Source of the DNA: Oligoflexia bacterium
GTDB taxonomy: Bacteria; Bdellovibrionota; UBA1018
Length of the DNA: 64,000 bases
NCBI GenBank assembly: GCA_014376785.1
Contig: JACMQW010000018.1
Location: 9,536 to 73,535, forward strand
Direction of reading: 5' to 3'
Position numbers and translations under genes: made by a program. Below the pieces are notes generated by a model. The model was not told the DNA's origin and did no database searches. It saw only the letters and a program-made list of their open reading frames with translations. Shown piece by piece: positions 18,195 through 34,001 of the stretch (the first letter of the stretch is position 1; every line of letters starts with the position of its first letter).

Positions 18195-18356
18195 AGCGGA
18201 GAACTTGATCATCCCTCCCGGACCGCGTATTCGAAGGGAAACACATTCTGAGTCGAAGGAAGTGGGTGAAAATCCCACACTGTCCCGCAACGGTGATGAG
18301 ACGACGCTCTCTCAGTCCGGTCTACGACAAAGAATTCATCCCGAGGAGGAATCGCT

Positions 18357-28397: not shown

Positions 28398-28744
28398 ATT
28401 CGATTGCTTACGAAAAAGGTCACTGGAGAGGAGGAAGCATCGATCACGACGCTACAAACGAGAGATTAAGAAACCGCTAAGTCCTTATCCTTACAACAAT
28501 TGCAAATGGGTTTGGGACGCTTAAGGCAACGGCATTACACGAAGAGTGCGCATTTTCTCTGGTCAGGTGTCTAAATTTTTTACAGTTTGTGCAAATTGTC
28601 CTATGACTCGAAACTTTGTAAGATCTTGTAATCACGATCTAATTTATCCGCTGAGAAAATTGACTGTGCGCGGCACGGTCTTGGCATTAGCCCGCCCGGG
28701 TATCTTAAAGATCCCGTGACGAAAAGATGCCCCCGGAGAAATTT

Positions 28745-29692
28745 ATGAAAATGATGAAACAAGCAGGATTTGGAATTTTGAGCGCACTCTCACTCGTTGG
28801 TTGTGGCGGCGGAGGTGGGGGCGCGGCTCCTGCTCAGCCCGCAGCAGCGATGAATCCCACCGGAAATTATTACCAGACGCAAGGATCGCAACCCTACAAT
28901 TGCCAATCGGGCATGATCCAACTCCGAAACGCTTTCGGACAAACCCAATGTTTCAATACGGTGAATCTCGCTGAAGCCTGCATCCAGGCCCGCGGCATTT
29001 TCCAAGGAAACCTCTGCCGACGCGAACGAGTGATTCCATCCCGGAATGCGGTTTTTACGGTTCGGAACGTCCAGCCTTATTTCCCAGTCACCATTCCAGG
29101 AATTTCGGCTAGCCTCTATGCCGGAGAATCGCTGAAGCTTTCCGGATGTCTTGATAATGGGTATGGCGATGCAGAATGGAGCGCGCAACTTCTTCAAGGA
29201 GGAGTCGCAGTGGGTTCCGCATCGAGCCAATCCATGGTGATGAACGGTCAAAGCTCTGACAATTTTACGATTGCAGCAACGAGCTCAGGTTTTGCCGGCG
29301 GCGTAGGATACGCAAACGGTGGATATCAAACTCCTGGCTATCAGAACACCGGTTACCCAAACACAGGATATCAAAATACGGGATACCCAAACACAGGATA
29401 TCAAAATACGGGATACCCAAACACAGGATATCAAAACACCGGTTACCAGAATCAAGCCCCCTACAATAATGGGGCCTATACCAACACTCCCTATCCGAAT
29501 ACGGGCGCTTATCCGAATGCCGGAGTTTACCCGAATGGCCAAACGCCTTACGGAAACACGATGGCGATGATTCCGCAGAGCTACGATTTGCAGATTATGT
29601 TTGAGTACCGTGAGCCTAAAGTGAAGATCGCGCTGAAAATGTCGGCAGTCACCTGCGAAGACGGTCACGGAAACAACTATGCTTGCCCTTAA
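28745..29692 (+). CDS. Lipoprotein with G-Y-(Q/P)-N-T pentapeptide tandem repeats
   Basis: ATG at 28745 with a GGAGAA RBS. MKMMKQAGFGILSALSLVGCGGGGGG carries the lipobox LVGC. The repeat block reads GYQTPGYQNTGYPNTGYQNTGYPNTGYQNTGYPNTGYQNTGYQNQ. Confidence 0.65.
   Translation: MKMMKQAGFGILSALSLVGCGGGGGGAAPAQPAAAMNPTGNYYQTQGSQPYNCQSGMIQLRNAFGQTQCFNTVNLAEACIQARGIFQGNLCRRERVIPSRNAVFTVRNVQPYFPVTIPGISASLYAGESLKLSGCLDNGYGDAEWSAQLLQGGVAVGSASSQSMVMNGQSSDNFTIAATSSGFAGGVGYANGGYQTPGYQNTGYPNTGYQNTGYPNTGYQNTGYPNTGYQNTGYQNQAPYNNGAYTNTPYPNTGAYPNAGVYPNGQTPYGNTMAMIPQSYDLQIMFEYREPKVKIALKMSAVTCEDGHGNNYACP
29321..29455 (+). repeat. 9x tandem 15-nt coding repeat (period 15; two perfect 30-nt copies at 29366-29395 and 29396-29425)
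   Basis: GGATATCAAAATACGGGATACCCAAACACA is duplicated exactly. The adjacent units are degenerate. Confidence 0.8.
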
Positions 29693-29718
29693 GGATCGGC
29701 TAGCCTCATCCTTAACGG

Positions 29719-32346
29719 ATGAATCGCAACGAACCACGCAACAAGCGACGTAAAGGCGAAGTAAAAGGTAAGGCCACTCAGGCTAAGCCCGGCGCTTCAA
29801 AGGTAAAATCAGAATCCGACGAAGCCCCGCGAGAGTCTCGCGAGGCTTTTGTCTTTACGGATCGGTCGGGTAAACAGCACCTGCTGCCCCCACGTGGAAA
29901 TTCAGCCGGGAATTCACACGCTCCCCTGAAACGCGATCATGATTCCGGTCGGAAACCGGAACAGGGTGGAAGAAAGTTTCCGCGAGGTCCTGGGAAACCA
30001 GCGGATCGTCAACCGAATGGCGGCACAAACGCTGGCGCGAAACCTTCCTTCTCGTTCAAAGCGCGCGGTGAAGATTCACCTGCTTTCCGCTCTCCCGCGG
30101 ATCGACCGCGTGACCGCACGAACGACCGAGGACGTGATGGTCGCGGGAATCGGGATTCGAACCGCAGTTCGCGTGGGCCTCATTCGGATCGAGGCAGCTC
30201 GCGAGGCGACCGTGAAAACTCTCGCGGTGACCGCGGCAGTTCACGAGGCGGAAGAGGTGAACCCCGCTCAGATCGTGGTGGTTCTCGAGGTGAACGCGGA
30301 GCCAGTCGGAGGGATCGCAACGACCGAGGTGACCGAGGTAGTAATCGGTCACGACGTCCGAGTGCGCCGCACGTTCCAAGCGAGAGCGATTTCAAATTAA
30401 AAGCTCGGATCGATAAAAACCGAAAAGGTTTTGCGTTTCTCCAATTTGAAAGCCGTGAATACGAGGACGCTTTCCTAAGCCCATTCGAGGCCGAACGATT
30501 CTTTCATGGCGACCGGGTCGAAGCCGTAGTTACGGAAGAGGGCGAAGTCGTCGAAGTGCGCGTGATCGAACATCGATTCCGCGAACTTGTGGGTCGTTAC
30601 TACCGCACGGGTAAAAACGGCATGGTCGTATACGAGCGGAAAAAAGCGCGCGAAGAATTATTAGTCGTAGGAGATTCGAAAAGCGCGAAAACTCGCGACT
30701 GGGTTCGTGCGAAAGTGATTTATCCGGAAGAAGAAAACGGACGCATCACTTGTGAAATCCTCGAAGCCTACGGTGAAGAGTTGCCGGCCAGCGCGGACAT
30801 TCAGATGGTTTCCGCAGAATACAATCTGGTCGAGGAGCATTCTCCAGAAGCAGTAGCCGAAGCCGAAAGTTTTAAGCTCGACCTCGCGGATCCTCACCGA
30901 GTGGATCTGCGCCATGTTCCTTTCATCACCATCGATGGTGAAACCGCTCGTGACTTCGATGATGCCGTTTACGTCGAACGCAATCGTGAAAATGGCTACA
31001 CGCTTTGGGTGGCGATCGCCGATGTCTCTCATTACGTTAGGCCCGGAACCACGCTCGATGATGAGGCGCTTTCGCGCGGGACTTCGGTGTATTTTCCGGA
31101 GCGGGCATTTCACATGCTCCCTCGCGCACTCTCAGAAAACCTCTGTTCGCTTCGGCCGGATGGTCCTCGGCTCACGATGACCGCTAAAATCGATTACGAC
31201 CGAACGGGTAAAAAGCTTCGAGTCGAAGTGATGAACTCGCTCATCCAAAGTCGGAGAAGAGCGACCTACAACGAAATCCAAAAAGAGGCCGACGAAAACG
31301 TCGGCGTGGCGGGTTGGGAATTCCGCGTGCATTACGATCTGTACGCCATTCTTCGAAAGAAAAAAAACGAACGCGGTTCCATCGATTTCGATCTTCCCGA
31401 AGCCGAAGTGAAAGTCGAACCGACCGGCGAACCGATCTCAATCAAAAACCGACCCCGTCTGGATGCACATCGGTTGATCGAAGAGTTCATGATCGCGGCG
31501 AACGAATCCGTGACGGAATGGGCGCTGGAACGCGAGTGGCCTTTCGTCTACCGCGTGCACGACGAACCCTCCGCGGGTGCGATGGCGAAATTCGCTGATC
31601 TCTGCAAACACCATGGTGTGCCCTTCGTGGTGGACAAAGATAATCTCGGCGAAGCGTTGAACGAAGTCGTGAAATCCCTCGAAGGAAATCCGGCCCAGAT
31701 TCTGCTGAATATGGCGCTCCTTCGTTCGATGGCCCAAGCTCACTACTCGTCCGCACATGGGATCCATTTTGGCCTCGCTTCGCAAGCTTACACGCACTTT
31801 ACCTCGCCGATTCGCCGGTATCCCGATTTGGTCGTGCATCGCATGTTAAAGCTCGCTCTGGATTACGAACGCGAGAAGAAGATTCTCGAAGATGACGAGC
31901 GTGAAGAAATCGAAAAAAAGTTAGCCGAAATCACCGAACACTGTAGCTACCGTGAGCGGATCGCGTCGGATGCCGAACGCGAGTCCATTAAACTCAAGCA
32001 AACTCGTATTATGCTGAAAGAGATCGGAAATGAATTCCCAGCAAAGGTGAATGGGATGTTAGAGGCGGGAATGTTTGCGACTCTGGAAGATCCCTTCGTG
32101 GAAGGTTTCATCGCAACCGAAGCGATGGCAGGAGATTCTTTTTCATTCAACGTCGAACGCCAGGTATTCGTCGGTCGACGAAGCAAGAAAACCTTTAAGA
32201 TCGGGGATTCGATTCGCGTGCGCGTAGACAACGTGGATCTCGATCTTCGGCGCATCGATCTCGGATTGGTCGCGGACGATTCGGATCGCGTGCCGACGGT
32301 TGCTGAAACGATGAAGGAACTGCTGAAGGCGGACGACGAATCATGA
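29719..32346 (+). CDS. rnr: Ribonuclease R (RNB family 3'-5' exoribonuclease) with ~225-aa N-terminal Arg/Gly/Ser/Asp-rich low-complexity extension
   Basis: The cold-shock region is KGFAFLQFESREYEDAFL...HGDRVEAVV. The RNB catalytic core contains FITIDGETARDFDDAVYVE. A C-terminal S1-like domain is present. The N-terminus is DRGSSRGDRENSRGDRGSSRGGRGEPRSDRGGSRGERGASRRDRNDRGDRGSNRS. Confidence 0.85.
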   Translation: MNRNEPRNKRRKGEVKGKATQAKPGASKVKSESDEAPRESREAFVFTDRSGKQHLLPPRGNSAGNSHAPLKRDHDSGRKPEQGGRKFPRGPGKPADRQPNGGTNAGAKPSFSFKARGEDSPAFRSPADRPRDRTNDRGRDGRGNRDSNRSSRGPHSDRGSSRGDRENSRGDRGSSRGGRGEPRSDRGGSRGERGASRRDRNDRGDRGSNRSRRPSAPHVPSESDFKLKARIDKNRKGFAFLQFESREYEDAFLSPFEAERFFHGDRVEAVVTEEGEVVEVRVIEHRFRELVGRYYRTGKNGMVVYERKKAREELLVVGDSKSAKTRDWVRAKVIYPEEENGRITCEILEAYGEELPASADIQMVSAEYNLVEEHSPEAVAEAESFKLDLADPHRVDLRHVPFITIDGETARDFDDAVYVERNRENGYTLWVAIADVSHYVRPGTTLDDEALSRGTSVYFPERAFHMLPRALSENLCSLRPDGPRLTMTAKIDYDRTGKKLRVEVMNSLIQSRRRATYNEIQKEADENVGVAGWEFRVHYDLYAILRKKKNERGSIDFDLPEAEVKVEPTGEPISIKNRPRLDAHRLIEEFMIAANESVTEWALEREWPFVYRVHDEPSAGAMAKFADLCKHHGVPFVVDKDNLGEALNEVVKSLEGNPAQILLNMALLRSMAQAHYSSAHGIHFGLASQAYTHFTSPIRRYPDLVVHRMLKLALDYEREKKILEDDEREEIEKKLAEITEHCSYRERIASDAERESIKLKQTRIMLKEIGNEFPAKVNGMLEAGMFATLEDPFVEGFIATEAMAGDSFSFNVERQVFVGRRSKKTFKIGDSIRVRVDNVDLDLRRIDLGLVADDSDRVPTVAETMKELLKADDES

Positions 32347-34001
32347 AATGGCTTCGGAGAGGACGTCAGCTGAATCTGGCTGTCCGCAATTCGAGACGGC
32401 TCCGCGAAATCCTCGGTGTTTTCGCAAAACACGGATTCACCGACGTCGCCGTTCGGATGGACCTGGAGCGGTTTCTTCCCGCACGGTGGAAATCGGGACT
32501 GATCGCCGCGAGTGATCGTCCGACGGAAGAACGTCTACGCATTGCATTCGAGGAACTCGGGCCGACATTCGTCAAGCTTGGGCAGGTTCTGGCGACCCGT
32601 TCTGATTTGATTCCCCAAGATTTCGTCGATGAATTAAAAAAACTGCAGGATAACGTTTCGACCCTTCCTTTCGAAATGATTCGCACTGTAGTCGAGAGAG
32701 AACTCGGAAAACCACTGACGGAGGCTTTCGCTTCGTTTGAAGAAAAACCCATTGCTGCCGCTAGTATCGCGCAAGTTCACGGAGCTGTTCTACCGACCGG
32801 TGAAAAAGTCGTCGTAAAAATTCAAAGGCCCGATCTCGAGCGAATCATTAATCGAGATGTGGCGCTTTTAGATTTTCTAGCAAAGCTTTTAGAAAAATAC
32901 GTGCCGGAGTCTCGAATCTTCGCGCCAGCCACGATCGTCGATGAGTTTTTTCGCACGCTCAAGCTCGAACTCGATTTCCATATCGAAGCAAATAACATCG
33001 GCCGCATCACGGAAAATCTTGCTGAATTTAAAGATGTGAAGCTGCCGCACGTCTACCGCACGCACTCGACGCGCCACATTCTGACCCTAGAACGGTTTTT
33101 CGGTATTCCGATGACCCAGATCGCTGAAGTGAAAGCGAAGGGTTATGATTTGAAGCATCTCAATGAAGTGGGCGCCCGTGCTTTCTTCAAGACCGTCGTG
33201 AAAGACGGTATTTTTCACGGTGACCTTCATGGCGGGAATCTTTTTGTTTTAGAGGACGGTAAGCTCGGGCTCATCGATTTTGGAATTGTGGGGCGTCTCT
33301 CGCGCCGTTCCCGCCAACAGCTCTCGAGCATGGTCTTGGCGATCATGACTGAGGATTTCGAAGCGCTTTGTTACCAATACGCGGAACTGGGTTCGGCAGG
33401 ACCGAACGTGGATTTTGATGGGTTCCAGCGCGAAGTGCGAAACGCATTGGCTCCTTACCTAGGGCTGAGAGCAAAAGACATCAACTCGGGGCAAGTCCTC
33501 ATCGAGGCCACGAAAATTGCGGCGAAGTATGAAATTCGTGTGCCCGGCGACTGGATGATTGTTTTCCGCGCTCTGTTTACGGTGGAGGGACTCGGCCGGG
33601 AGCTGGATCCTGATTTCGACATGATGACTTTGGGTCGGGAACTTATGGTCGATTTGGTGAAAGACCAGTATTCTCCTGAGAACTTTTCGAAAGACGCGCT
33701 TTGGATCGCGAAAGACATGATGGCGCTTGCGCTGGTCTTGCCGCGGCAGATTCGTTGGATGTTTAAAAAATTCAGCGCAGACGGCTACGCGTTCGAAGTG
33801 AAATCTCCGCAGCTCGACCAACTGACCGCAGGTCTCGAGCGAAATACCCGAAAGCTCAGTCTCTCGATCCTGACGACGGGACTGGTCATAGCGGCCGCAC
33901 TCAGTATGCAGGCTCCCGAAGCCATCCATCGCTTTAAGGGGTATCCGGCCCCGACGATCGTGCTTTTAGTTTTAGCGCTTTGGACTTGGTTCAGAGTCTA
34001 G
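32343..34001 (+). CDS. ubiB: UbiB/ABC1 atypical kinase family protein (ubiquinone biosynthesis)
   Basis: ASIAQVHGAVLPTGEKVVVKIQRP and FHGDLHGGNLFVLEDGKLGLIDFGIVGRL are present. C-terminal TM helices. ATGA overlap with rnr. Confidence 0.8.
   Translation: MKWLRRGRQLNLAVRNSRRLREILGVFAKHGFTDVAVRMDLERFLPARWKSGLIAASDRPTEERLRIAFEELGPTFVKLGQVLATRSDLIPQDFVDELKKLQDNVSTLPFEMIRTVVERELGKPLTEAFASFEEKPIAAASIAQVHGAVLPTGEKVVVKIQRPDLERIINRDVALLDFLAKLLEKYVPESRIFAPATIVDEFFRTLKLELDFHIEANNIGRITENLAEFKDVKLPHVYRTHSTRHILTLERFFGIPMTQIAEVKAKGYDLKHLNEVGARAFFKTVVKDGIFHGDLHGGNLFVLEDGKLGLIDFGIVGRLSRRSRQQLSSMVLAIMTEDFEALCYQYAELGSAGPNVDFDGFQREVRNALAPYLGLRAKDINSGQVLIEATKIAAKYEIRVPGDWMIVFRALFTVEGLGRELDPDFDMMTLGRELMVDLVKDQYSPENFSKDALWIAKDMMALALVLPRQIRWMFKKFSADGYAFEVKSPQLDQLTAGLERNTRKLSLSILTTGLVIAAALSMQAPEAIHRFKGYPAPTIVLLVLALWTWFRV

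What the first reader, a model, noticed from the sequence alone, without database searches (positions are those of the whole stretch)
29719..30410. RNase R with a 225-aa N-terminal Arg/Gly/Ser/Asp low-complexity domain in place of the usual HTH module
The ORF is continuous from 29719 into the cold-shock and RNB domains. The N-terminal segment is nearly all R/G/S/D/N/E and contains imperfect SRGDRG repeats at DNA level. Canonical RNase R has a short HTH N-terminus and a basic C-terminal tail, so an RGG/SR-like N-terminal IDR is unusual for bacteria. It might mediate RNA binding, condensate formation or ribosome association. Alternatively the true start could be an internal codon just before the CSD.
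Basis: partly seen in the sequence, partly recalled or inferred. Interest (0 to 1): 0.55.

Follow-up and report, generated by a model that had tools for sequence, protein, structure and literature searches.

The report
RNase R with basic disordered N-terminus
[quoted passage not shown] The arm carries one short, strongly conserved beta-hairpin motif, and this layout is shared across the phylum but has not been described in the literature searched.

Summary
ORF 29719-32346 (875 aa) is an RNase R: it scores above the NCBIfam equivalog cut-off, with an intact CSD1-CSD2-RNB-S1 core at residues 226-851.

- **N-terminal arm.** Residues 1-225 are low-complexity (R 19%, G 14%, S 13%, P 9%, D 8%), carry net charge +26, match no family, and are predicted disordered.
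- **Missing modules.** There is no HTH and no basic C-terminal tail.
- **Internal start excluded.** No in-frame ATG, GTG or TTG exists between codon 1 and codon 280, which lies inside CSD1.
- **Translation supported.** More than 100 Bdellovibrionota homologs keep a variable 20-400 aa, always cationic extension. 92 of 120 contain the same island, Φ-x-Φ-x-D-R-S-G-K-x-H (window residues 44-54, FVFTDRSGKQH). Its codons vary synonymously, and AlphaFold predicts a beta hairpin there.
This peptide motif, a covarying terminator-like RNA hairpin overlapping it (29819-29852), and a conserved -10-like element just upstream of the ATG.
- **Labels not met.** The arm has no di- or tri-RGG motif and few RS dipeptides, so "RGG/SR-like" does not apply. 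DNA-level repeats are weak.

Most likely the arm is an RNA/ribosome-tethering module that takes over the roles of the HTH and the K/R tail. That function is inferred, not shown. I rate it a new variant of a known kind, of moderate interest.

The parts
29698..29707 (+). GGCTAGCCTC, containing a -10-like hexamer TAGCCT (29701-29706) 13-18 nt upstream of the rnr ATG. There is no Shine-Dalgarno sequence between it and the ATG.
   Evidence: A TAnnnT hexamer starts at -20..-12 in 24 of 28 relatives, against a 5% background. The longer consensus is TTTCRGGTARRCTC. Few genes in the window have an SD (10 of 33). The promoter function and the short or absent leader are inferred, not shown.
29719..32346 (+). 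rnr gene: RNase R, 875 aa plus stop.
   Evidence: TIGR02063 scores 606.8 bits against a cut-off of 597.85. Pfam finds RNB, OB_RNB, CSD2 and S1. The protein is identical to NCBI MBC7385097.1, 'ribonuclease R'. AF2 gives the core pLDDT above 90.
29719..30393 (+). N-terminal extension, residues 1-225: a polycationic (+26), low-complexity, intrinsically disordered arm.
   Evidence: Composition and charge are. No Pfam hit even at E<=10. AF2 pLDDT is below 50 for residues 1-41 and 58-211. 106 homologs carry an extension with net charge per residue of 0.161 +/- 0.054. pN 0.40-0.42 is lower than pS 0.69-0.75.
29848..29880 (+). Conserved peptide island FVFTDRSGKQH (residues 44-54). Family consensus: G-[GA]-F-x-F-[KTR]-D-R-S-G-K-V-H-x-Φ-G. 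Predicted beta hairpin.
   Evidence: 79 of 120 homologs match the strict regex. His at +10 is kept in 78 of 79 although it was not part of the regex. 92 of 120 match the relaxed form, and 47 of 47 when the extension is >=150 aa. Its distance to CSD1 varies widely among homologs (CSD1 begins about 25 to 220 residues after the motif). Codons vary synonymously, for example Ser AGY/TCN. AF2 places strands at 45-47 and 53-55 with pLDDT 64-69, inside a region with pLDDT below 40. The same hairpin appears in homolog P0051.
29819..29852 (+). RNA hairpin inside the coding region, followed by a U-rich tract (to 29857). It is intrinsic-terminator-like, and its 3' arm is formed by the codons just before and at the first Phe of the peptide motif.
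   Evidence: The terminator scan flags the stem at 29828-29842 plus the tail AGGCTTTTGT. dG is -21.6 kcal/mol for 48 nt, z = -3.1. It is present in 19 of 20 relatives of the subclade, including ones whose encoded peptide differs. 85.6% of cells are paired, against 37-54% when the partners are slid. 10 of 15 pairs show compensatory changes, and 0 of 500 shuffles reach the observed values. It is absent in most distant relatives that still keep the peptide motif. No Rfam match.
30106..30393 (+). Arg/Gly/Ser/Asp-rich part of the arm (residues 130-225), with an approximate 7-residue periodicity (D/E-R-G-S-S-R-G). Contains 9 Di-RG and 4 Tri-RG motifs.
   Evidence: At DNA level only 13-18 nt imperfect repeats are found, and the 21-nt periodicity has z = 2.2.
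30406..30837 (+). CSD1 (OB_RNB, residues 230-273) and CSD2 (residues 303-373).
   Evidence: Pfam. AF2 beta strands with pLDDT above 90.
30898..31860 (+). RNB catalytic domain (residues 394-714), with the invariant motif DGETARDFDD (D406, D412, D414, D415).
   Evidence: Pfam E = 3.6e-103. Invariant columns in the 88-sequence alignment.
32020..32265 (+). S1 domain (residues 768-849).
   Evidence: Pfam.
32272..32343 (+). Short acidic C-terminal end (net charge -5, predicted helix 861-873). It stands where canonical RNase R has its K/R-rich tail.
   Evidence: For comparison, the E. coli tail is shown.

Best explanation
**What the gene encodes (shown).** The gene encodes a full-length, catalytically intact RNase R. 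Translation starts at ATG 29719, so the protein begins with a 225-residue, intrinsically disordered, polycationic arm.

[quoted passage not shown] In the window's subclade the C-terminal K/R-rich tail is absent too.

**The proposed role (inferred).** The arm takes over their jobs.
- Its bulk positive charge gives non-specific, long-range capture of RNA or ribosomes. That charge is conserved as a property, at about +0.16 per residue, rather than as sequence.
- The one conserved island (residues 44-54, FVFTDRSGKQH) is a beta hairpin presenting two Phe and one His. It is a specific docking element for a partner, most plausibly the 30S subunit, a rescue complex, or single-stranded RNA.
- The island is tethered to CSD1 by a linker of freely varying length.

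**Expression (inferred).** The gene appears to be expressed from a promoter immediately upstream of the ATG, with a very short or absent leader. In the window's subclade it carries a covarying terminator-like hairpin about 100 nt into the ORF. That hairpin could couple rnr transcription to translation.
For: **Translation from 29719.**
- There is no in-frame canonical start between codons 2 and 279.
- The same 875-aa model is in NCBI.
- 106 of 120 homologs have a Met-initiated extension of >=20 aa in frame with the core.
- The peptide motif is conserved in 79-92 of 120 homologs that were collected through core similarity only.
- Motif codons turn over synonymously, including Ser AGY<->TCN.
- In the extension pN 0.40-0.42 is lower than pS 0.69-0.75.
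- A conserved -10-like element sits at a fixed distance from this ATG.

**Disorder plus an island.** AF2 gives pLDDT below 50 for 1-41 and 58-211, but 64-69 with a beta hairpin at 45-55. The result is reproduced in P0051.

**Replacement of the HTH and the tail.**
- Model positions 1-67 of TIGR02063 are unmatched.
- Pfam finds nothing at E<=10.
- PF08461 appears in none of the 120 hit annotations.
- The C-terminal end is acidic.
- Extension charge and C-tail charge are negatively correlated (rho = -0.27, p = 0.006). None of the 27 subclade members has a basic C tail, against 30 of 79 more distant members.

**Precedent.**
- The HTH anchors B. subtilis RNase R on the 30S subunit through uS11 (PMC10901742).
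- The E. coli K-rich tail is disordered and raises RNA affinity. Its short stretch 735-750 recruits the enzyme to tmRNA-rescued ribosomes (PMC3949413).

**Motif specificity.**
- A back-translated pattern scan of 185,579 species genomes found 94 hits.
- 28, plus one cut by a contig end, lie in RNase R N-termini of Bdellovibrionota-type MAGs.
- The rest are scattered, at about chance level.
- A profile search of 1.84 billion proteins returned only two RNase R N-terminal fragments.
Against: - No functional assay exists. RNA binding, ribosome binding and the partner of the hairpin are all inferred.
- AF2 does not dock the hairpin on the core with confidence, even in a homolog with a 20-residue linker (pLDDT about 56). 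This says nothing positive about any partner.
- The negative N/C charge correlation is weak and not corrected for phylogeny.
- About a quarter of homologs lack the motif. These mostly have short extensions, and Bdellovibrio sp. P0119 is among them.
- The arm is interspersed with Asp and Glu (31 acidic residues), so it is a polyampholyte rather than a plain polycation.
- No -35 element with normal spacing was found upstream, and the transcription start is unknown.
Confidence: 0.6

Rival explanations
1. The RG-rich stretch is an untranslated leader and RNase R starts just before CSD1. The conserved hairpin plus U-tract would then be a classical 5'-UTR attenuator.
For: There is no Shine-Dalgarno before ATG 29719. 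A covarying terminator-like hairpin sits about 100 nt downstream. Other frames of this region are also open for 70-153 codons, so openness in a single sequence is weak evidence.
Against: No ATG, GTG or TTG lies in frame between codon 2 and codon 280, and codon 280 is inside CSD1. The frame is kept through length changes of 20-400 codons in 106 homologs. The peptide motif is conserved with synonymous codon changes, also in relatives that lack the RNA hairpin. pN is lower than pS. SD sequences are rare throughout this window.
Confidence: 0.02
2. The arm is translated but is mainly a condensate-forming (phase-separating) module. It would concentrate RNase R with RNA in degradation bodies, as described for the N-terminal disordered region of Type II RhlB helicases.
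For: The arm is RG-rich, mixed-charge, low-complexity and disordered, with 9 Di-RG motifs. There is a precedent in a bacterial RNA enzyme: bioRxiv 10.64898/2026.03.23.713837.
Against: Apart from seven Phe there are no aromatic residues (no Tyr or Trp). Arg versus Lys usage drifts freely among homologs, with R/(R+K) about 0.58 overall. No assay exists. This reading does not explain a single, sharply conserved 11-residue motif.
Confidence: 0.15
3. The arm is a regulatory element of the enzyme itself. It could be an autoinhibitory tail folding back on the very acidic core (-26), or a degron/adaptor site controlling RNase R stability, as the N- and C-terminal regions do in E. coli.
For: The charges of arm (+26) and core (-26) cancel exactly. 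The E. coli K-rich tail is proposed to contact the core and to govern stability through tmRNA-SmpB and proteases (PMC3949413).
Against: AF2 shows no confident intramolecular docking of motif or arm in either model. Core charge varies widely in the family (-12.4 +/- 7.5), so exact cancellation is not conserved.
Confidence: 0.15
4. The extension is neutral low-complexity expansion (slippage-driven junk) tolerated at a permissive terminus, with no function.
For: Length is hypervariable and sequence divergence is fast. Amino-acid identity is about 47% in the arm against 83% in the core at the same evolutionary distance. Weak internal repeats are present.
Against: A positive net charge is kept in every one of 106 homologs (minimum +0.083 per residue). 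One motif is nearly invariant across the phylum. pN is lower than pS. Loss of the C tail coincides with longer, more strongly charged arms.
Confidence: 0.06
5. The apparent peptide motif is a by-product of selection on the overlapping RNA hairpin and U-tract, not on the protein.
For: The 3' arm and U-tract of the hairpin are the codons for G-A-F-x-F.
Against: Most distant relatives have no hairpin there yet keep F-x-F-x-DRSGK-x-H. The DRSGKxH part lies outside the hairpin. Phe codons alternate TTT/TTC and Ser alternates AGY/TCN.
Confidence: 0.02

Closest known systems
Canonical bacterial RNase R (E. coli Rnr, B. subtilis RNase R; NCBIfam TIGR02063; PDB 5xgu, 8cdu)
   Same: The CSD1-CSD2-RNB-S1 core is shared. 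It aligns over 630 residues at E = 1e-103 to 1e-105. The catalytic Asp motif is intact. The score is above the equivalog cut-off.
   Different: [quoted passage not shown] Instead there is a 225-residue disordered cationic N-terminal arm with a conserved beta-hairpin motif.
C-terminal K-rich domain of E. coli RNase R
   Same: Both are disordered and polycationic, and both hold a short, specific determinant inside a non-conserved basic tail. In E. coli this is residues 735-750, which recruit the enzyme to tmRNA-rescued ribosomes and raise RNA affinity (PMC3949413). This is the best functional analogue.
   Different: The E. coli tail is at the opposite end of the protein and is Lys-rich rather than Arg/Gly/Ser/Asp-rich. 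There is no sequence similarity, and the determinant here is a Phe/His beta hairpin.
HTH domain of RNase R as 30S anchor (B. subtilis, PMC10901742)
   Same: It occupies the same position in the protein, N-terminal to CSD1. The only alignment hhalign offers places the motif on the wing strand of the E. coli HTH (REAFVFTDR / DGQLVFTRR).
   Different: That alignment covers 9 columns at 1% probability, so homology is not shown. No helices are predicted, and Pfam and NCBIfam HTH models do not match.
N-terminal disordered extension of Type II RhlB helicases (P. aeruginosa; bioRxiv 10.64898/2026.03.23.713837)
   Same: It is a clade-specific N-terminal disordered region on a bacterial RNA-decay enzyme. 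There it is reported to drive RNA-dependent phase separation and to enhance activity.
   Different: It belongs to a different enzyme family. Nothing is known about phase separation in the present case.
Eukaryotic RGG/RG-motif and SR domains; Arg-rich RNA-binding segments and microdomains of the RNase E C-terminal region (PMC4435900)
   Same: All are Arg/Gly-rich disordered RNA-binding regions. As in RNase E, short conserved microdomains are embedded in fast-evolving disorder.
   Different: The arm has no Di- or Tri-RGG motifs and only 13 RS/SR dipeptides, and acidic residues are interspersed. It is attached to an exonuclease N-terminus, not to an endonuclease scaffold.

Membership tests
RNase R (RNB family, TIGR02063 equivalog) | RNB catalytic domain with the conserved acidic motif | tested here: met
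   PF00773 E = 3.6e-103, residues 394-714. D406, D412, D414 and D415 are invariant in 88 sequences.
RNase R (RNB family, TIGR02063 equivalog) | Two N-terminal cold-shock/OB domains and a C-terminal S1 domain | tested here: met
   OB_RNB 230-273, CSD2 303-373 (21.3 bits, below the Pfam cut-off of 26.2), S1 768-849. AF2 beta barrels with pLDDT above 90.
RNase R (RNB family, TIGR02063 equivalog) | Whole-protein score above the curated equivalog cut-off (distinguishes it from RNase II) | tested here: met
   606.8 bits against a cut-off of 597.85. The RNase II models fall far below their cut-offs.
RNase R (RNB family, TIGR02063 equivalog) | [quoted passage not shown] | tested here: not met
   Model positions 1-67 are unmatched. 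No Pfam hit at E<=10. No helix is predicted in residues 1-225.
RNase R (RNB family, TIGR02063 equivalog) | C-terminal Lys/Arg-rich tail | tested here: not met
   Only 24 residues follow S1, with net charge -5. Compare the E. coli tail.
RNase R (RNB family, TIGR02063 equivalog) | Processive 3'-5' degradation of structured RNA | not testable with these tools
   Needs an enzyme assay.
RGG/RG-motif proteins (classification recalled from Thandapani et al. 2013, not re-read here) | Di- or Tri-RGG repeats (RGG-x0-4-RGG) | tested here: not met
   None found. Only two isolated RGG.
RGG/RG-motif proteins (classification recalled from Thandapani et al. 2013, not re-read here) | Di- or Tri-RG repeats | tested here: met
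   9 Di-RG and 4 Tri-RG between residues 137 and 207.
SR/RS domain | Dense runs of RS/SR dipeptides | tested here: not met
   8 SR and 5 RS dipeptides in 225 residues, with no runs.
Intrinsic (Rho-independent) terminator, for the RNA hairpin 29819-29857 | G+C-rich stem, short loop, U-rich tract directly after the stem | tested here: met
   Consensus scan hit at 29828-29842 plus tail. However, the number of such sites in the region is not above shuffles. The extended stem is supported by covariation.
Intrinsic (Rho-independent) terminator, for the RNA hairpin 29819-29857 | Causes transcript 3' ends in vivo or in vitro | not testable with these tools
   Needs Term-seq or in-vitro transcription.
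Leaderless or short-leader mRNA | -10 element 5-10 nt upstream of the start codon, no SD, transcription start at or next to the AUG | tested here: inconclusive
   A TAnnnT hexamer lies at a conserved distance in 24 of 28 relatives, with no SD. In the window it ends at -13, which implies a leader of about 5 nt. The transcription start has not been measured.

The most novel reading that the evidence does not exclude
Bdellovibrionota have re-engineered how RNase R finds its substrates. A phylum-specific beta-hairpin short linear motif (F-x-F-x-DRSGK-x-H) on a long cationic disordered leash would be a new ribosome, rescue-complex or ssRNA docking device. It would functionally replace both the HTH anchor and the K-rich tail. 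In the window's subclade its coding sequence doubles as a translation-coupled intragenic attenuator, so that rnr transcription reports on ribosome availability.
Probability: 0.2. Interest if true: 0.6.

Novelty: new variant of a known kind. Interest (0 to 1): 0.4.

Why it matters
RNase R is the main bacterial enzyme for degrading structured RNA, defective ribosomes and non-stop mRNAs. Its targeting is currently explained by two accessory modules, the HTH and the K/R-rich tail, studied only in E. coli and Bacillus. Here a whole phylum lacks the HTH, and one subclade lacks both modules. Yet it conserves a different solution: a disordered cationic N-terminal leash with a single sharply conserved hairpin motif.

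If the motif is a docking element, it gives a compact, mutable handle of 11 residues. That handle could be used to ask what RNase R must touch in order to work, and how disordered regions substitute for folded domains in bacteria. The overlapping covarying RNA hairpin is a candidate example of a coding sequence under dual protein and RNA constraint.

None of this changes the basic identity of the gene, which is an ordinary, already annotated RNase R.

Tried and rejected
1. **Internal start codon.** I enumerated in-frame starts and found none usable.
2. **DNA tandem repeats.** TRF and the repeat finder found only marginal repeats.
3. **Pfam on the extension and on the motif at E<=10.** Nothing matched, including the RNase R winged-helix model.
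4. **Motif profile against the 5.8-billion protein set.** 414 candidates were collected and none reached E<=10. The profile is too short for that database size, so this is uninformative.
5. **Motif profile against 1.84 billion representatives.** Two hits were returned, both RNase R N-terminal fragments. No other family carries the motif at detectable significance.
6. **Vestigial HTH wing.** hhalign places the motif on the E. coli wing strand, but at 1% probability. I kept this as a lead only.
7. **Mini cold-shock hairpin.** Against the protein's own core, only a DRTGK beta-turn in the RNB domain aligned.
8. **Intramolecular docking of the motif.** AF2 on the window protein and on a natural short-linker homolog predicts the hairpin at only pLDDT 56-69, so docking is neither shown nor excluded.
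9. **Other RG-rich proteins in the window.** None found.
10. **Rfam.** No match in 29600-30450.
11. **dN/dS.** Synonymous sites are saturated, so only pN versus pS is reported.
12. **Literature.** Five full-text searches found no description of this architecture or of Bdellovibrionota RNase R. The library is incomplete, so prior description cannot be excluded.
Full report
**1. What is there**

ORF 29719..32346 on the + strand is 875 codons long.
- An in-frame TAA lies at 29713, and ATG 29719 follows it after one codon.
- The next in-frame ATG, GTG or TTG is GTG at codon 280 (30556).
- NCBIfam TIGR02063 (ribonuclease R, equivalog) scores 606.8 bits against a cut-off of 597.85. It aligns protein residues 226-851 to model positions 68-710 of 711.
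- Pfam finds OB_RNB at 230-273, CSD2 at 303-373 (21.3 bits, below its 26.2-bit cut-off), RNB at 394-714 (E = 3.6e-103) and S1 at 768-849.
- The closest solved structures are B. subtilis RNase R (8cdu_C, query 220-852 to chain 66-709) and E. coli RNase R (5xgu).

The enzyme core is therefore complete and its acidic catalytic motif is invariant. The first 67 model positions, which form the helix-turn-helix, have no counterpart. After S1 only 24 residues remain, with net charge -5.

The exact 875-residue protein is already in NCBI as MBC7385097.1, 'ribonuclease R' of an Oligoflexia MAG. Oligoflexia and Bacteriovoracaceae both belong to the phylum Bdellovibrionota.

**2. The N-terminal 225 residues**

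- Composition is R 19%, G 14%, S 13%, P 9%, D 8%, A 7%, K 6%, N 6%, E 5%.
- Net charge is +26 and pI 11.6. The rest of the protein has net charge -26 and pI 5.3.
- Hydrophobic residues make up 6.7% of the arm against 32% of the core.
- No Pfam family matches, even at E<=10.
- AlphaFold2 with an 88-sequence alignment gives pLDDT below 50 for residues 1-41 and 58-211, and above 90 for the core.
- Residues 130-225 show an approximate 7-residue period, with SRG at 161, 168, 175, 189 and SRR at 196.
- At DNA level the periodicity is marginal. TRF finds only a 9-bp x2 repeat. The repeat finder gives 13-18 nt imperfect copies. The 21-nt autocorrelation is z = 2.2 against codon shuffles.
- There are 9 Di-RG and 4 Tri-RG motifs, no Di- or Tri-RGG, and 13 SR/RS dipeptides.

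It is an RG-rich mixed-charge region, not an RGG box or an SR domain.

**3. Is it translated?**

Five independent lines say yes.
- **(a) No alternative start.** No canonical start codon could give a protein with an intact CSD1 other than ATG 29719.
- **(b) Conserved frame.** The 120 best homologs were collected through similarity of the whole protein, 55-84% identical in the core. Of these, 106 begin with Met and have an extension of at least 20 residues in frame with the core. Extension lengths range from 20 to about 400 residues. Net charge per residue is 0.161 +/- 0.054 and never falls below +0.083.
- **(c) Conserved peptide island.** See section 4.
- **(d) Substitution pattern.** In codon alignments with three relatives, non-synonymous differences in the arm (pN 0.40-0.42) are well below synonymous ones (pS 0.69-0.75). 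The arm nevertheless evolves about four times faster than the core (pN 0.11-0.14). Synonymous sites are saturated, so no dN/dS ratio is quoted.
- **(e) Upstream element.** A conserved element sits at a fixed distance upstream of this ATG; see section 6.

The 'untranslated leader' alternative is therefore rejected.

**4. A conserved motif inside the disorder**

Aligning the extensions of close homologs revealed one sharply conserved block, window residues 43-57, AFVFTDRSGKQHLLP.
- The pattern Φ-x-Φ-x-D-[RK]-x-G-[KR] occurs in the extension of 79 of 120 homologs.
- Within those 79, His at +10 is present in 78 and Ser/Thr at +6 in 76, although neither was part of the pattern. The flanks carry essentially no information.
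- A one-residue-shorter variant (F-x-DRSGKxH) accounts for most of the remainder. In all, 92 of 120 homologs carry DR[STAN]G[KR]x[HR].
- Occurrence rises with extension length: 47 of 47 when the extension is >=150 residues, 28 of 29 for 100-150, 13 of 18 for 60-100, and 4 of 15 for 20-60.
- The distance from the motif to CSD1 varies widely among homologs: CSD1 begins about 25 to 220 residues after the motif.
- AlphaFold2 predicts a beta hairpin (strands 45-47 and 53-55) with pLDDT 64-69, flanked by pLDDT of about 35. In the natural short-linker homolog P0051 the hairpin is again predicted (strands 11-13 and 19-21), but at pLDDT of about 56. Docking on the core is therefore not supported.
- In 30 DNA sequences the motif codons turn over freely: Phe TTT/TTC, Asp GAT/GAC, four Arg codons, four Gly codons, and Ser as AGC, AGT, TCG, TCA or TCC. 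This is the signature of selection on the peptide. The caveat is that these 30 sequences were found with a pattern that required the peptide. The independent evidence for conservation is the protein set.

**5. How specific is the motif?**

- A back-translated pattern, TTYNNNTTYNNNGAYCGNWSNGGNAARNNNCAY, occurs once in the window and 0 times in 100 shuffles.
- It has 94 matches in one genome each of 185,579 species.
- 28 matches, plus one cut by a contig end, lie in the N-terminal part of RNase R ORFs. These come from MAGs labelled Bacteriovoracaceae, Bacteriovorax, Bdellovibrionales, Bdellovibrionia or Oligoflexia, plus a few with vague labels.
- The other ~65 matches are scattered over unrelated phyla, mostly in short spurious ORFs. 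My own estimate from the information content of the pattern is about 35 chance matches, which is the same order.
- A profile search of 1.84 billion representative proteins gave two significant hits, both RNase R N-terminal fragments.

As far as these searches can see, the motif is private to RNase R of this phylum.

**6. Surroundings**

*Upstream of the ATG.*
- There is no Shine-Dalgarno sequence, but SD-like sequences are rare in this window generally (10 of 33 long ORFs).
- A TAnnnT hexamer starts at -20..-12 in 24 of 28 relatives, against 5% background. It lies within a longer consensus, TTTCRGGTARRCTC. In the window it is TAGCCT at 29701-29706.
- I read this as a -10 element giving a very short or absent leader. 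No -35 element with normal spacing is evident, and the transcription start has not been measured.

*Gene order.* The order lipoprotein-like gene, rnr, ABC1/UbiB-type kinase is kept in relatives.

*RNA hairpin within the arm's coding sequence.*
- A strong RNA hairpin spans 29819-29852 and is followed by a U-rich tract. It was flagged as terminator-like.
- It folds at -21.6 kcal/mol for 48 nt.
- It is present in 19 of 20 relatives of the subclade. This includes four (L103, L105, L004, L015) whose encoded peptide upstream of the motif is quite different.
- On an 18-sequence alignment, 85.6% of cells form standard pairs, against 37-54% when partners are slid. 10 of 15 pairs show compensatory double changes, and 0 of 500 shuffles reach the observed values. 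RNAalifold recovers the inner stem.
- Most distant relatives lack the hairpin but keep the peptide motif. The peptide is therefore not a by-product of the RNA structure.
- No Rfam family matches.
- Its function is unknown. The candidates are an attenuator suppressed by coupled translation, a processing site, or a stability element.

**7. Mechanism**

The following points are established.
- In canonical RNase R the HTH and the K/R-rich tail are the RNase R-specific accessories.
- The HTH contacts uS11 and anchors the enzyme on the 30S subunit (PMC10901742).
- The K-rich tail is disordered and raises RNA affinity. Through residues 735-750 it recruits the enzyme to tmRNA-rescued ribosomes (PMC3949413).
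- In the window's protein both accessories are missing, and a cationic disordered arm with one specific determinant is present instead.
- Across homologs the charge of the arm correlates negatively with the charge of the C tail (Spearman -0.27, p = 0.006, not corrected for phylogeny).
- In the window's subclade none of 27 members has a basic C tail. Among more distant relatives 30 of 79 do.

From this I infer that the arm supplies the non-specific electrostatic capture normally given by the tail. I also infer that the hairpin motif supplies a specific contact, to the small subunit, a rescue complex or single-stranded RNA. This inference has about 0.5-0.6 confidence. That the arm is translated, disordered, cationic and conserved as an architecture has about 0.95 confidence.

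The rival readings are a condensate scaffold, an autoinhibitory or degron element, and neutral expansion. They are listed separately with their tests.

**8. Origin of the motif**

- The only alignment hhalign offers between the motif profile and E. coli RNase R residues 1-115 is to the wing strand of the HTH (REAFVFTDR / DGQLVFTRR). It covers nine columns at 1% probability.
- Comparison with CspA gives nothing.
- Comparison with the protein's own core finds only a DRTGK turn in the RNB domain.

The vestigial-wing idea is therefore recorded as an untested lead.

**9. Novelty and verdict**

The gene is an ordinary, already annotated RNase R. The following are not described in the papers I could search:
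- the phylum-wide architecture, with the HTH absent and an N-terminal cationic disordered arm in its place;
- the conserved hairpin motif;
- the overlapping covarying RNA hairpin.

The library is incomplete, so prior description cannot be excluded. I rate this a new variant of a known kind, of moderate interest (0.4). It is a clean natural experiment on how RNase R accessory modules can be replaced, but it has no functional data and no departure from known principles of basic disordered RNA-binding tails.

Noticed in passing
window 29819-29857 (+): There is a covarying, terminator-like RNA hairpin inside the rnr coding region. Its 3' arm and U-tract are the codons just before and at the start of the conserved peptide motif. 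It is present in 19 of 20 subclade relatives with compensatory changes. It is absent in most distant relatives and matches no Rfam family.
   Followed up: yes
window 29698-29707 (+), and 10-20 nt upstream of rnr in loci L004-L084: A conserved element (consensus TTTCRGGTARRCTC, containing a TAnnnT -10-like hexamer) sits at a fixed distance from the rnr start codon in 24 of 28 relatives. This suggests a very short or absent 5' leader. In the window the sequence GGCTAGCC is also a perfect palindrome.
   Followed up: partly
window, starts of 33 ORFs of at least 250 aa: Shine-Dalgarno-like sequences are rare: 10 of 33 ORFs, and most of those are weak 4-mers. Several starts have TAnnnT-like hexamers close upstream, for example 16605. 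The organism may use many SD-less or leaderless mRNAs.
   Followed up: partly
window 28727-29692 (+), repeats at 29339-29448: The upstream gene encodes a lipoprotein-like protein with a Gly-rich N-terminus after a Cys. It has GYQNT/GYPNT pentapeptide repeats (Pfam Pentapeptide_2). The repeats are encoded by a 30-nt tandem repeat x3.6 at 91% identity. Its C-terminal end (CEDGHGNNYACP) and its position upstream of rnr are conserved in relatives.
   Followed up: partly
window 32343-34001 (+): An ABC1/UbiB-type atypical kinase gene overlaps the rnr stop by 4 nt (ATGA). The rnr-ABC1 adjacency is kept in most relatives examined.
   Followed up: partly
window 30043-30069 (+), residues 109-117: A second, degenerate F-x-F element (PSFSFKARG) lies within the arm. 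It is present only in the window's protein and not in aligned relatives. It may be a decayed duplicate of the motif.
   Followed up: no
window 18245-18335 (+): AdoCbl (cobalamin) riboswitch aptamer, 50.7 bits against a gathering score of 50.
   Followed up: no
window 29939-30400 (+, other frame); 30056-30379 and 30180-30395 (-): Long open frames of 153, 107 and 71 codons overlap the RG-rich coding segment in other frames and on the opposite strand. They are best explained by the stop-poor codon composition of the repeat region. Nothing suggests they are genes.
   Followed up: no
protein P0001 / NCBI MBC7385097.1: The same protein record carries two organism labels, 'Cryobacterium sp.' and 'Oligoflexia bacterium'. 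All close homologs are from Bdellovibrionota-type MAGs, so the first label looks like a binning or naming error. Several motif-bearing loci also have odd labels, for example L048 'Lysobacteraceae'.
   Followed up: no
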